DNA of 15,264 bases, from UHGV virus genome UHGV-0370902; one strand, 5' to 3'. The stretch is from a virus. Every line of letters starts with the position of its first letter. Position 1 is the first letter of the stretch. Positions 12,535 through 12,860 of this stretch are shown in pieces. The position numbers and the translations under genes are program-made. The notes under the pieces were generated by a model that had not been told where the DNA came from, did not search any database, and saw only the letters and a list, made by a program, of their open reading frames with translations.

Positions 12535-12681
12535 GTCGGAAATATATCCAGTATTTCCGAAGTGTATGGAGGATTACCTACCGCTACACCCTTGGCAACC
12601 GCAAGCCAAGGATAGCGGTTCTCCCAACAAACTACAACCTGTTCGGGTAAACAGGCTGTATACAAAAACAGGAGAAAAGCT

Positions 12682-12816
12682 ATGGCTCACGATGTTAATC
12701 GCGATGACTTCATCTACGAACACGACAAGCCGGTTTATGTGCGCAGTTACTGCCGCATACGTTTCGGTGAGCTCGAACATGTTCGTCAGCACTTCCGCTC
12801 TTATCCGAGCTGCTGA
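12682..12816 (+). CDS. Small ORF (44 aa), hypothetical
   Basis: MAHDVNRDDFIYEHDKPVYVRSYCRIRFGELEHVRQHFRSYPSC; AGGAG RBS 8 nt upstream; own terminator 17 nt downstream; below the ORF-track length cut-off. Confidence 0.35.
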   Translation: MAHDVNRDDFIYEHDKPVYVRSYCRIRFGELEHVRQHFRSYPSC

Positions 12817-12832
12817 AAATAACTAAATCTCA

Positions 12833-12860
12833 AACCCGGCTTCCGCGCCGGGTTTTCTTT
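12833..12860 (+). terminator. Rho-independent terminator
   Basis: AACCCGGC-TTCCGC-GCCGGGTT followed by TTCTTT. Confidence 0.6.

What the first reader, a model, noticed from the sequence alone, without database searches (positions are those of the whole stretch)
12540..12860. Stand-alone small ORF with a highly structured leader and its own terminator, between the cI operon and OL
Between the operon terminator and OL there is a compound hairpin (CCGCTA..CCTTGGC..GCCAAGG..TAGCGG, 12581-12618), a second hairpin (CCTGTT-CGGGTA-AACAGG, about 12638-12655), then AGGAG, a 44-codon ORF, and a clean terminator. This looks like an independent micro-gene or a small RNA locus in the immunity region. No obvious sigma70 promoter was found by eye.
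Basis: seen in the sequence. Interest (0 to 1): 0.5.

Follow-up and report, generated by a model that had tools for sequence, protein, structure and literature searches.

The report
Folded leader gating a prophage microprotein
The small ORF is a real, conserved 44-residue protein gene and its hairpins are a conserved folded mRNA leader that can hide or expose its ribosome-binding site, but it is the second gene of a portable two-gene prophage cassette of unknown function, not a stand-alone gene or small-RNA locus.

Summary
The 44-codon ORF is under purifying selection. It belongs to a large uncharacterised microprotein family (phrog_21154, no Pfam, NCBIfam or PDB match). It is not independent. 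In Escherichia, Salmonella, Klebsiella, Raoultella, Yersinia, Cedecea, Erwinia and Symbiopectobacterium prophages it follows a 160-177 aa gene after a 150-173 nt spacer, and one strong terminator closes the pair. The only promoter-like site lies upstream of the 177-aa gene. The spacer is a structured RNA absent from Rfam. Four helices (P0, P1 with P1a, P2 and an anti-SD:SD helix) keep pairing through compensatory and G-U changes. The anti-SD strand can pair with the true SD or with an upstream SD look-alike, so this is probably a translational switch. In this window the closed form is predicted to win by 9 kcal/mol, but the balance varies among relatives and the trigger is unknown. The partner protein has a tyrosine-recombinase core-binding fold and no catalytic domain. 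About 31% of the microprotein's relatives end in a canonical beta-clamp-binding motif. This is a new RNA leader family and a new gene cassette of known general kinds, of moderate interest.

The parts
11918..11946 (+). Promoter-like site of the cassette: TTGATT (11918-11923), 17 nt spacer, TAGTAT (11941-11946)
   Evidence: Read. The same TTGATT-N17-TA(T/G)(T/C)AT arrangement is kept in the Salmonella, Klebsiella and Symbiopectobacterium cassettes, whose surroundings differ. It has 8 of 12 consensus matches, below the cut-off of the scan. This is an inference; no transcript data exist.
11948..11974 (+). Hairpin GCCTCATCAACTGTATGAGGC followed by TTTTTT, directly before the ATG of the 177-aa gene; its 3' arm holds the GAGG Shine-Dalgarno
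   Evidence: Listed as terminator-like. Conserved with changed stem bases in relatives. It may stop read-through from the cI operon, while transcripts from the cassette promoter would start inside it (inference).
11975..12508 (+). Partner gene, 177 aa (phrog_2602). It has an N-terminal four-helix domain with the core-binding fold of tyrosine recombinases, a basic linker, and a nearly invariant C-terminal 45 residues
12509..12535 (+). Hairpin GCCCCG/CGGGGC followed by TTTTT: a partial terminator or stabiliser between the two cistrons
   Evidence: The stem is conserved, but the U tract is missing in type B, Erwinia and type C relatives. It is therefore not a dependable terminator across the family.
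12536..12560 (+). P0 stem-loop: TCGGAAATA, loop TATCCAG, TATTTCCGA
   Evidence: Four of its 7 aligned pairs show changes on both sides, and 97.6% of cells are paired across 25 leaders.
12562..12589 (+). Local helix H1': GUGUAUGGAGG pairs with CCUACCGCUACAC. It contains the SD look-alike GGAGGA (12568-12573) and the 5' arm of P1
   Evidence: Present in the MFE. 92% of cells are paired in the 8 type A leaders, with one G-C to U-A compensatory change in Erwinia. It cannot form at the same time as P1.
12580..12619 (+). Compound hairpin: outer stem P1 (ACCGCTA 12580-12586 with TAGCGGT 12613-12619) enclosing the variable hairpin P1a (12590-12611)
Evidence: P1 is 100% paired in type A, and one of its pairs occurs as C-G, A-U and G-C. 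It is recovered by RNAalifold on a structure-blind MAFFT alignment. P1a differs in sequence in almost every lineage but remains a stem.
12612..12624 (+). Anti-RBS strand: AUAGC (12612-12616) and UUCUCC (12619-12624)
   Evidence: It pairs with GCUAU 12679-12683 and GGAGAA 12671-12676 in the MFE. The UUCUCC:GGAGAA part is kept in all type A leaders, while the AUAGC:GCUAU part is lineage-specific. In type B the corresponding strand changes together with the RBS.
12633..12660 (+). P2 hairpin (CCTGTT 12638-12643 with AACAGG 12650-12655) plus outer stem 12633-12636 with 12657-12660
Evidence: 96% of cells are paired, and two pairs show changes on both sides.
12670..12684 (+). Ribosome-binding site: AGGAG 12670-12674 and ATG 12682-12684
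   Evidence: In this window the predicted probability of the SD helix is 1.00.
12682..12816 (+). Microprotein gene, 44 aa: MAHDVNRDDFIYEHDKPVYVRSYCRIRFGELEHVRQHFRSYPSC
   Evidence: phrog_21154, E 1.9e-31. RefSeq lists it as WP_000929756.1, hypothetical protein. There are 143 synonymous against 53 nonsynonymous codon differences, and 167 of 223 base changes fall at third positions. 95 representative clusters match at E<1e-3. The core is predicted as a small beta-sheet with pLDDT above 90.
12832..12860 (+). Intrinsic terminator that ends the cassette: AAACCCGGC, loop TTCCGC, GCCGGGTTT, then TCTTT
   Evidence: The stem and U tract are kept in every relative, with loop and stem-top changes.

Best explanation
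The region is the distal half of a portable two-gene accessory cassette inserted between the cI operon and OL/PL. In order, the cassette consists of a promoter-like site, the 177-aa gene, a hairpin, a folded leader of about 145 nt, the 44-aa gene and a strong terminator. The leader acts in cis on translation of the microprotein. It folds into P0, a compound hairpin (P1 plus P1a) and P2. The strand just 3' of the compound hairpin (UUCUCC, plus AUAGC in this lineage) is complementary to the true Shine-Dalgarno and start region (GGAGAA...GCUAU). It is also complementary to an upstream Shine-Dalgarno look-alike (GGAGGA), which lies beside the 5' arm of P1. In the closed state the anti-SD strand pairs with the RBS, and a local helix (12562-72 with 12577-89) hides the look-alike and the P1 arm. 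In the open state P1 forms, the look-alike captures the anti-SD strand, and the RBS is free. In this window the closed state is predicted to dominate, so the microprotein would be made sparingly or only on a signal, while the upstream gene is translated freely. Shown: the gene is coding, the pair is always linked, and the helices are conserved with compensatory changes on the + strand. Inferred: the promoter, co-transcription, the switch logic and the default-off state. Unknown: the trigger. Candidates are the cassette's own 177-aa protein, ribosome binding at the look-alike, and RNA processing. The function of the two proteins is also unknown. From the location it is probably a lysogen-expressed accessory or defence function.
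For: Linkage: the partner gene, a 150-173 nt spacer and the small ORF occur together in unrelated prophage contexts. The covariance model of the leader hits only beside partner genes, 74-162 bits, and hits none of about 60 loci that hold distant microprotein genes. Coding. Structure: z is about -6. RNAalifold on a MAFFT alignment recovers P0, P1, the anti-SD:SD helix and P2, with 8 of 27 pairs compensatory. Across 25 distinct leaders, 93.1% of cells are paired against 30-43% when partners are slid, and the covariation score is 0.283 against 0.120 shuffled (0/500) and at most 0.093 slid. G-U pairs in P1, the SD helix and P2 place the structure on the + strand RNA. Switch: in type B both the 12-bp open helix and the 13-bp closed helix are about 83% paired against 19-49% slid, and one column covaries with two alternative partners (39:51 is GC:9/AU:6; 51:82 is CG:9/UA:5). 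In type A, P1 is 100% paired, look-alike:anti-SD 95%, H1' 92%, and the SD part of the closed helix about 100%. Cognate RBS/anti-RBS duplexes are more stable than cross-type ones (A-A -11.4 against A-B1 -5.3 kcal/mol). In the window the closed fold is -61.4 and the open fold -52.4 kcal/mol. Promoter-like site. Location: the position downstream of cI is a known accessory/defence locus (bstA, PMC8585504).
Against: The equilibrium energy needed to open the RBS is not consistently higher than with shuffled upstream sequence. For the window it is 7.8 against 5.1 +/- 1.9 kcal/mol (5 of 60 shuffles as high), and many relatives are at or below the control. The predicted probability of the SD helix ranges from 0 to 1 among relatives and is about 0 in the Enterobacter group. 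Within type A the SD, the look-alike and the anti-SD are nearly invariant, so no covariation separates the two pairings there. The start-codon-proximal part of the closed helix is not conserved. In the related type C leaders the strand that closes the compound hairpin (AUCCCC) is not complementary to the SD. The conserved core may therefore serve another purpose, such as protein binding. The sequences fall into few lineages, so shared ancestry inflates the shuffle-based scores. There are no transcript or translation data.
Confidence: 0.55

Rival explanations
1. The leader is mainly a binding platform for a protein, either the 177-aa partner or the microprotein itself. That protein would set expression of the small ORF, as ribosomal-protein leaders do. 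The complementarity to the Shine-Dalgarno would be secondary or lineage-specific.
For: The partner's C-terminal 45 residues are almost invariant across cassettes that share this leader family. This holds even where the N-terminal domain is only about 35-40% identical and the small ORF is a different protein. In type C cassettes the leader and this C-terminal segment have both diverged. The UAGCGG core and the compound-hairpin shape persist in type C without anti-SD complementarity. P1a is hypervariable, like a specificity loop.
Against: No RNA-binding domain is recognisable in either protein. The partner's confident domain is a DNA-binding fold. L204 has the same C-terminal segment but a leader the model does not detect. 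The three-way similarity of look-alike, RBS and anti-RBS in types A and B is hard to explain without an RNA-RNA switch.
Confidence: 0.2
2. One reading: an independent transcription unit, either a micro-gene with its own unrecognised promoter or a stand-alone small RNA.
For: In this window a hairpin with five U residues precedes the region, and a clean terminator follows the ORF. Distant members of the microprotein family do stand alone in other genomes. A promoter that depends on an activator would escape a consensus scan.
Against: No promoter-like site lies in the spacer, and none is conserved between leader types when read directly. The preceding hairpin lacks a U tract in many relatives. 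The leader never occurs without the partner gene. No terminator separates the structured part from the ORF. There is no Rfam match.
Confidence: 0.07
3. Part of the element works at the DNA level. The P0 palindrome (9-bp arms, 7-bp spacer) would be a binding site for the core-binding-domain partner protein, serving for autoregulation, activation of a weak downstream promoter, or self-recognition.
For: The partner has the fold that tyrosine recombinases use to bind inverted core sites. In type A, P0 has the 9-7-9 geometry of such sites (the geometry of core sites is from general knowledge). P0 pairs are almost all Watson-Crick, with no G-U among the aligned cells. The bstA locus provides a precedent for a short DNA self-immunity element in a gene downstream of cI (PMC8585504).
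Against: The spacer shrinks to 3-5 nt in type B and the stem has a bulge in the Enterobacter group. L052 needs a G-U pair. Type C has no P0. These features suit an RNA hairpin better than a protein's DNA site. P1, P2 and the SD helix carry G-U pairs and are clearly RNA.
Confidence: 0.08
4. The hairpins are processing or stability signals (RNase III or RNase E sites, or protective stem-loops). They would uncouple the amounts of the two proteins without any switching.
For: Two or three consecutive stable stem-loops sit between two cistrons. RBS accessibility at equilibrium is not unusual.
Against: This does not explain why the look-alike, the anti-RBS and the RBS change together between leader types. 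It also does not explain the mutually exclusive helices that each carry compensatory changes.
Confidence: 0.06
5. A type I toxin-antitoxin-like locus: a toxic small protein whose structured mRNA is held inactive and is controlled by an antisense RNA.
For: The mRNA has a long structured 5' region with competing pairings around the SD, resembling the tac/ucb/dcb logic of hok mRNA (general knowledge). The best sub-threshold Rfam hit is sok (16.6 bits, E 0.19).
Against: The peptide is hydrophilic and basic with no membrane segment. No promoter-like site is found on the minus strand in the scan or conserved between types when read directly. The sok score is far below the gathering score of 59. The G-U pairs argue against a structured minus-strand RNA.
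Confidence: 0.04

Closest known systems
hok mRNA of the hok/sok system (tac, ucb and dcb elements), and the processed leaders of tisB, zorO and dinQ
   Same: A small ORF lies behind a long folded leader. An upstream element competes with the RBS for one complementary strand, so the mRNA has a translationally closed and an open fold.
   Different: There is no sequence or Rfam relationship. The product is a hydrophilic basic microprotein, not a membrane toxin. No antisense RNA gene is evident. The ORF is the second cistron behind a protein gene. The description of hok elements comes from general knowledge and was not tested here.
Lambda cIII translational control element (Rfam RF01804), present in this same window at 14696-14754
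   Same: It is a phage mRNA element in which alternative structures around the start site set translation of a small regulatory protein.
   Different: It is an unrelated sequence family. The cIII element is about 59 nt and overlaps the start codon. This leader is about 145 nt, has three hairpins and an upstream RBS look-alike, and lies between two cistrons.
Accessory and defence genes downstream of the prophage repressor: rexAB and sieB (general knowledge) and bstA (PMC8585504)
   Same: They occupy the same position, between cI and the leftward early operon, and are expressed with or beside the repressor in lysogens. In one Yersinia pseudotuberculosis prophage a BstA-like gene sits directly beside a partner-family gene.
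   Different: There is no homology. PADLOC finds nothing for either cassette protein. A defence function is only a guess from location.
TF-smORF modules of temperate phages (Silpe et al. 2023, PMC10432266)
   Same: A DNA-binding protein gene lies next to a gene for a protein of about 40-60 residues in a prophage regulatory region.
   Different: In those modules the genes are divergent, the TF activates the smORF promoter, and the smORF inactivates the cognate cI. Here the genes are co-oriented with an RNA leader between them. The partner has a recombinase core-binding fold, and nearly the same microprotein travels with unrelated repressors and phage types. That argues against a repressor-specific antirepressor.
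Tyrosine recombinase core-binding (SAM-like) domains, and integrase-like regulators such as MrpR and SroF
   Different: The protein is only 177 aa, with no catalytic domain. Instead it carries a basic linker and a conserved 45-residue C-terminal segment that is predicted with low confidence.

Membership tests
Any Rfam RNA family (release 15) | Score at or above the family's gathering threshold | tested here: not met
   There is no match in 12450-12900 at gathering level. The best sub-threshold scores are 21 bits or less at E 0.19 or higher. There are also no matches in five related loci.
Type I toxin-antitoxin (hok/sok-like) | Small hydrophobic, membrane-active toxin | tested here: not met
   The 44-aa product is charged and basic, with no hydrophobic stretch. 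Its core is predicted as a beta-sheet.
Type I toxin-antitoxin (hok/sok-like) | Antisense RNA gene overlapping the toxin mRNA | tested here: not met
   No promoter-like site is found on the minus strand within the region. The G-U pairs are specific to the + strand. No transcript data are available, so an unusual promoter cannot be excluded.
Type I toxin-antitoxin (hok/sok-like) | Structured mRNA with alternative pairings that occlude the RBS | tested here: met
Cis-acting translational control leader with SD sequestration and an anti-sequestering alternative | An anti-SD strand complementary to the SD, kept across relatives | tested here: met
   UUCUCC:GGAGAA is about 100% paired in type A. The type B strands change together with the RBS. 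The helix is recovered by RNAalifold on a MAFFT alignment.
Cis-acting translational control leader with SD sequestration and an anti-sequestering alternative | A competing partner for the anti-SD strand, with evidence that both pairings are maintained | tested here: met
   The look-alike or P1 5' arm pairs with the same strand: 95-100% in type A and 83% in type B. One column covaries with two alternative partners.
Cis-acting translational control leader with SD sequestration and an anti-sequestering alternative | RBS measurably less accessible than expected, or shown to switch | tested here: inconclusive
   The window's closed fold is favoured by 9 kcal/mol. However, RBS opening energies are not consistently above shuffled controls, and the predicted balance differs among relatives. 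This needs experiments.
Riboswitch or RNA thermometer | A ligand-binding aptamer, or melting in the physiological temperature range | not testable with these tools
   No known aptamer matches. The closed helix of about -14 kcal/mol is stronger than is typical for thermometers (general knowledge).
Intrinsic terminator (12832-12860) | G+C-rich hairpin directly followed by a U tract | tested here: met
   A 6-9 bp stem is followed by TTTTCTTT, and it is conserved in all relatives.
PHROG 21154 / the V-x-V-R-x-Y-x-R-x-R-F-G-x-x-E-x-V-R-x-H-x-R-S-x-P microprotein family | Profile match over the full length, plus the core motif | tested here: met
   E is 1.9e-31 over residues 1-44. The motif alignment is A5. 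95 representative clusters match.
Beta-sliding-clamp-binding proteins | A clamp-binding motif QL[S/D]LF or QxxLF (PMC12309361) | tested here: not met
   The window protein ends in ...RSYPSC with no such motif. Of 156 family members, 48 carry Qxx[LFM]x?[FL] directly after the core, and 23 fit the strict form. Binding itself was not tested.
Tyrosine recombinase (for the 177-aa partner) | Core-binding domain fold | tested here: met
Tyrosine recombinase (for the 177-aa partner) | Catalytic domain with the R-H-R-Y active site | tested here: not met
   The protein ends at residue 177. After the helical domain come only a basic linker and a 45-residue segment. There is no Pfam integrase match.
TF-smORF antirepressor modules (PMC10432266) | Divergently transcribed TF and smORF, with the smORF specific for the cognate cI | tested here: not met
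   The genes are co-oriented. Microproteins about 79-93% identical to the window's occur beside unrelated repressors and in non-lambdoid elements. Antirepressor activity was not tested.
Known anti-phage defence systems (PADLOC-DB 2.0) | Profile match of the component proteins | tested here: not met
   There are no hits for the 177-aa or 44-aa proteins. Only the neighbouring DUF3024 gene matches, to candidate PDC-S43.

The most novel reading that the evidence does not exclude
The cassette is a new two-component prophage system directed at DNA replication, acting in defence, exclusion or addiction. In this reading the microprotein is a potent effector that acts on DNA or the replisome. About a third of its relatives carry a canonical C-terminal beta-clamp-binding motif. 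The core-binding-domain partner targets or restrains it. The folded leader is the safety catch that keeps the effector untranslated until a trigger, such as infection or induction, flips the RNA.
Probability: 0.15. Interest if true: 0.75.

Novelty: new member of a known kind. Interest (0 to 1): 0.45.

Why it matters
If the reading holds, it adds three things to the catalogue. The first is a structured mRNA leader family absent from Rfam, with an RBS look-alike, anti-RBS and RBS design. The second is a widespread family of 30-60 residue proteins that is not in Pfam or NCBIfam; the few members that carry an annotation are labelled only 'hypothetical protein'. The third is a portable two-gene cassette that occupies the accessory slot next to prophage repressors in Shiga-toxin-type and other enterobacterial phages. 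The clamp-binding tails in many relatives give a concrete, testable lead for what this microprotein family does. For genome annotation, it shows that the short ORF should be kept and that the pair should be treated as one unit.

Tried and rejected
1. Rfam at gathering and at permissive thresholds found nothing for the region, and ARAGORN found no tRNA-like gene there.
3. A promoter inside the spacer was rejected. The scan found none. Candidates read by eye in one leader type (for example TTGGAA-17-TAACTG in type B, or TTGCGA-18-AAGAAT in the end of the partner gene) are not kept in the other types.
4. An antisense gene was rejected. The minus-strand 'terminator' at 12660-12633 is simply P2 read backwards with a poor T tract. 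A minus-strand promoter-like TTAACC-17-TGTAAT exists only in type B.
5. The alternative ORFs (86 aa at 12566-12826 on +; 72 aa and 69 aa on -) were rejected because codon-position statistics fit only the 44-aa frame.
6. I expected the native leader to occlude the RBS more than shuffled leaders do. It does not do so consistently, so I dropped 'constitutive block' in favour of 'switch'.
7. The start-proximal AUAGC:GCUAU pairing first looked like part of a three-way covariation. It is not conserved within type A.
8. The gene upstream of a distant microprotein in L046 is not a partner homologue (hhalign probability 5.5%). The pairing with the partner family is therefore confined to Enterobacterales cassettes (plus L204).
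9. The antirepressor (TF-smORF) reading was considered and set aside because the cassette moves between phages with unrelated repressors.
10. A literature search for DUF3024 with prophage and defence found nothing.
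Full report
CONTEXT. The window is the immunity region of a lambdoid, Stx-phage-like prophage. The gene order is:
- cro-like gene, 10363-10608 (-);
- cI (HTH plus Peptidase_S24), 10669-11406 (+);
- a DUF3024 gene, 11444-11785;
- a 177-aa gene, 11975-12508;
- the finding;
- an N antiterminator gene, 13313-13696.
The stretch 12480-12900 is 100% identical to part of a prophage in E. coli O39:NM F8704-2, and bases 1-400 of it (12480-12879) are 98% identical to Escherichia phage SH2026Stx1. Only 6 of 5,426 complete E. coli genomes carry it. RefSeq annotates the small ORF as WP_000929756.1, hypothetical protein.

OBSERVATION. A further perfect stem-loop, P0 (12536-12560), was missed. 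The region folds much better than dinucleotide shuffles: z is -5.85 for 12536-12700 and -6.07 for 12536-12860, and no shuffle was as stable. No known Rfam family matches.

THE ORF IS A REAL GENE.
- It matches phrog_21154 over its full length (E 1.9e-31).
- Across 13 relatives from Salmonella, Klebsiella, Raoultella, Yersinia, Cedecea, Erwinia, Symbiopectobacterium and metagenomes, 143 differing codons are synonymous and 53 nonsynonymous. Of 223 base differences, 167 fall at third positions.
- A profile search of 1.84 billion representatives found 95 clusters at E<1e-3, mostly proteins of 30-60 residues. They share the core V-x-V-R-x-Y-x-R-x-R-F-G-x-x-E-x-V-R-x-H-x-R-S-x-P.
- Nothing matches in Pfam, NCBIfam or PDB sequences.

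IT IS NOT STAND-ALONE. In every close relative the ORF lies 150-173 nt downstream of a homologue of the 177-aa gene, whatever the surrounding element:
- a lambdoid immunity region in Yersinia intermedia, ordered cI, 166-aa gene, 45-aa gene, N;
- Klebsiella and Raoultella elements next to SSB and primase genes;
- Salmonella prophage ends next to dinI.
A promoter-like site, TTGATT-N17-TAGTAT at 11918-11946, lies upstream of the 177-aa gene. It is conserved in Salmonella, Klebsiella and Symbiopectobacterium, although the sequence further upstream differs. The spacer holds no promoter-like site. The hairpin after the 177-aa gene has five U residues here but no U tract in many relatives. The terminator after the small ORF is good everywhere. 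The simplest reading is one bicistronic cassette with its own promoter and terminator, inserted between the cI operon and OL/PL. This is an inference; I have no transcript data.

THE LEADER IS A CONSERVED STRUCTURED RNA. I collected 25 distinct leaders. They fall into three groups: type A (including this window), type B1 and type B2.
Eight of the 27 pairs show compensatory changes.
- A covariance model built from that alignment finds the leader only beside partner-family genes, at 74-162 bits. It finds none in about 60 loci that encode distant microproteins.
- On the model-based alignment of all 25 leaders, 93.1% of cells form standard pairs, against 30-43% when the 3' partners are slid by 1-3 columns. 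The covariation score is 0.283, against 0.120 +/- 0.010 in shuffles (0 of 500 reach it) and at most 0.093 when slid. Nine pairs change on both sides.
- That alignment is fitted to the model and the sequences are related, so these figures are upper bounds. The structure-blind result points the same way.
- G-U pairs in P1, the SD helix and P2 place the fold on the + strand RNA.

A SWITCH RATHER THAN A PLUG. The strand 3' of the compound hairpin (AUAGC 12612-16 and UUCUCC 12619-24) pairs in the MFE with GGAGAA 12671-76 and GCUAU 12679-83, which are the SD and the first two bases of the start codon. The same UUCUCC is complementary to an upstream SD look-alike, GGAGGA 12568-73. The adjacent UAGCGGU is the 3' arm of P1. 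A local helix, H1' (12562-72 with 12577-89), hides the look-alike and the 5' arm of P1.
- In type B the design is more explicit. The segment upstream of P1a (GGUUAACUGUUA) is a near copy of the RBS (GGUUAAUCGUUA), and both are complementary to UAACGGUUGGCC.
- On 16 type B leaders the 12-bp open helix and the 13-bp closed helix are each about 83% paired, against 19-49% when slid.
- One column covaries with two alternative partners. The pair 39:51 is GC:9/AU:6, and the pair 51:82 is CG:9/UA:5.
- On 8 type A leaders, P1 is 100% paired, look-alike:anti-SD 95%, H1' 92% (with one compensatory change), and the SD part of the closed helix about 100%. The start-proximal AUAGC:GCUAU part is not conserved.
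- Cognate RBS/anti-RBS duplexes are more stable than cross-type ones.

LIMITS OF THE SWITCH EVIDENCE. For this window the closed fold is -61.4 kcal/mol and the best open fold -52.4, and the SD helix has probability 1.00. Among relatives that probability ranges from 0 to 1, and it is about 0 in the Enterobacter group. The energy needed to open the RBS is not consistently higher than with shuffled upstream sequence. I therefore read the element as a bistable, switchable leader that is default-closed in this phage, not as a constitutive block. The trigger is unknown.

THE WIDER CASSETTE FAMILY.
- In Enterobacter cassettes (partner about 40% identical) the same leader family is followed by a different 44-aa ORF, a Cys4 protein: MANGICPKCGNACEVIFRPYKRNPDGTLSYPKRAKVFAIPVCNC.
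- In a third class the partner is about 36-42% identical and its C-terminal segment has diverged. There, a related but distinct leader of 151-152 nt keeps the UAGCGG core and the compound-hairpin shape. It precedes a 57-aa basic protein (phrog_33859). In that class the strand closing the compound hairpin is not complementary to the SD. This weakens a purely RNA-RNA explanation and keeps a protein-binding role open.
- Yersinia pseudotuberculosis prophages carry a decayed version, and Yersinia phage YP3 has the partner gene without a small ORF.

FUNCTION. Neither protein has a known function, and PADLOC does not recognise them. The slot downstream of cI is a recognised place for lysogen-expressed accessory and defence genes (bstA, PMC8585504). 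TF-smORF antirepressor modules (PMC10432266) look superficially similar. They differ in gene orientation and regulator type, and the smORF is specific for one repressor, whereas this cassette travels between unrelated phages.

One lead emerged from the family survey. Of 156 family members, 48 carry Qxx[LFM]x?[FL] directly after the conserved core, at the C-terminus or within a few residues of it. Many are exactly QLSLF, QLTLF or QLELF. This is the consensus beta-clamp-binding motif QL[S/D]LF (PMC12309361). The window's protein lacks that tail, so this is a hint about the family and not a result for this gene.

VERDICT. The locus holds a real microprotein gene behind a real, conserved, structured leader. 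It is the distal cistron of a portable two-gene prophage cassette, and the leader most likely gates its translation through competing pairings of an anti-SD strand. I judge it a new RNA leader family and a new microprotein and cassette family of known general kinds, of moderate interest. Transcript mapping and reporter mutagenesis would settle the mechanism.

Noticed in passing
relatives of the 44-aa protein: loci L056-L058, L061, L062, L064, L065, L082, L134, L135; proteins P0005, P0019, P0106, P0121, P0131, P0143, P0160 and others: About 31% (48 of 156) of the microprotein family carry a tail such as GQLSLF, NQLTLF, GQLELFPL or GQLSFNFD directly after the conserved core. This matches the consensus beta-sliding-clamp-binding motif QL[S/D]LF. 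The window's own protein lacks it.
   Followed up: partly
L149-L151, L194, L197-L203 (Enterobacter-type cassettes): The same leader RNA family (74-91 bits) is followed by an unrelated-looking 44-aa Cys4 zinc-ribbon-like ORF instead of the window-type microprotein, so the small ORF behind the leader can be swapped.
   Followed up: partly
L178-L196 (IMG/VR contigs); decayed copy in L143-L145 and L172-L174 (Yersinia pseudotuberculosis): This is a third cassette class. A diverged partner is followed by a 151-152 nt leader that keeps the UAGCGG core inside a compound hairpin, and then by a 57-aa basic protein (phrog_33859). The Y. pseudotuberculosis copies retain only remnants of that ORF in front of the same terminator.
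   Followed up: partly
L036 2870-2905 (Symbiopectobacterium sp. RP): The apical part of hairpin P1a holds a 29-nt direct copy of nucleotides about 6-34 of the downstream small ORF (CATGATGTAAATCGCGACGATTTCATCTA).
   Followed up: no
window 11948-11974: A terminator-like hairpin followed by TTTTTT ends one base before the ATG of the 177-aa gene, and its 3' arm contains that gene's GAGG Shine-Dalgarno. The predicted cassette promoter would start transcription inside this hairpin.
   Followed up: partly
window 11444-11785: The gene directly after cI encodes a DUF3024 protein that matches the PADLOC candidate defence family PDC-S43 (E 7e-42). A full-text search for DUF3024 together with prophage and defense found no papers.
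   Followed up: partly
window 4221-4420 (- strand): Rfam matches to C4 antisense RNA (71.8 bits), isrK (80.4 bits) and the c4 a1/b1 target (47.2 bits) lie side by side. This is a P1/P7-type antisense immunity module inside a lambdoid prophage.
   Followed up: no
window 14696-14754 (+): There is a full-length match to the lambda cIII translational thermoregulator element (RF01804, 88.5 bits).
   Followed up: no
window 826-981 (- strand): Two adjacent tRNA genes, tRNA-Thr(TGT) and tRNA-Asn(GTT), are found by both ARAGORN and Rfam.
   Followed up: no
L144 399-1163 (Yersinia pseudotuberculosis prophage): A KilA-N/BstA_C gene, a known abortive-infection defence family, lies between cI and the partner-family gene. 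Two accessory modules therefore share the slot downstream of cI.
   Followed up: no
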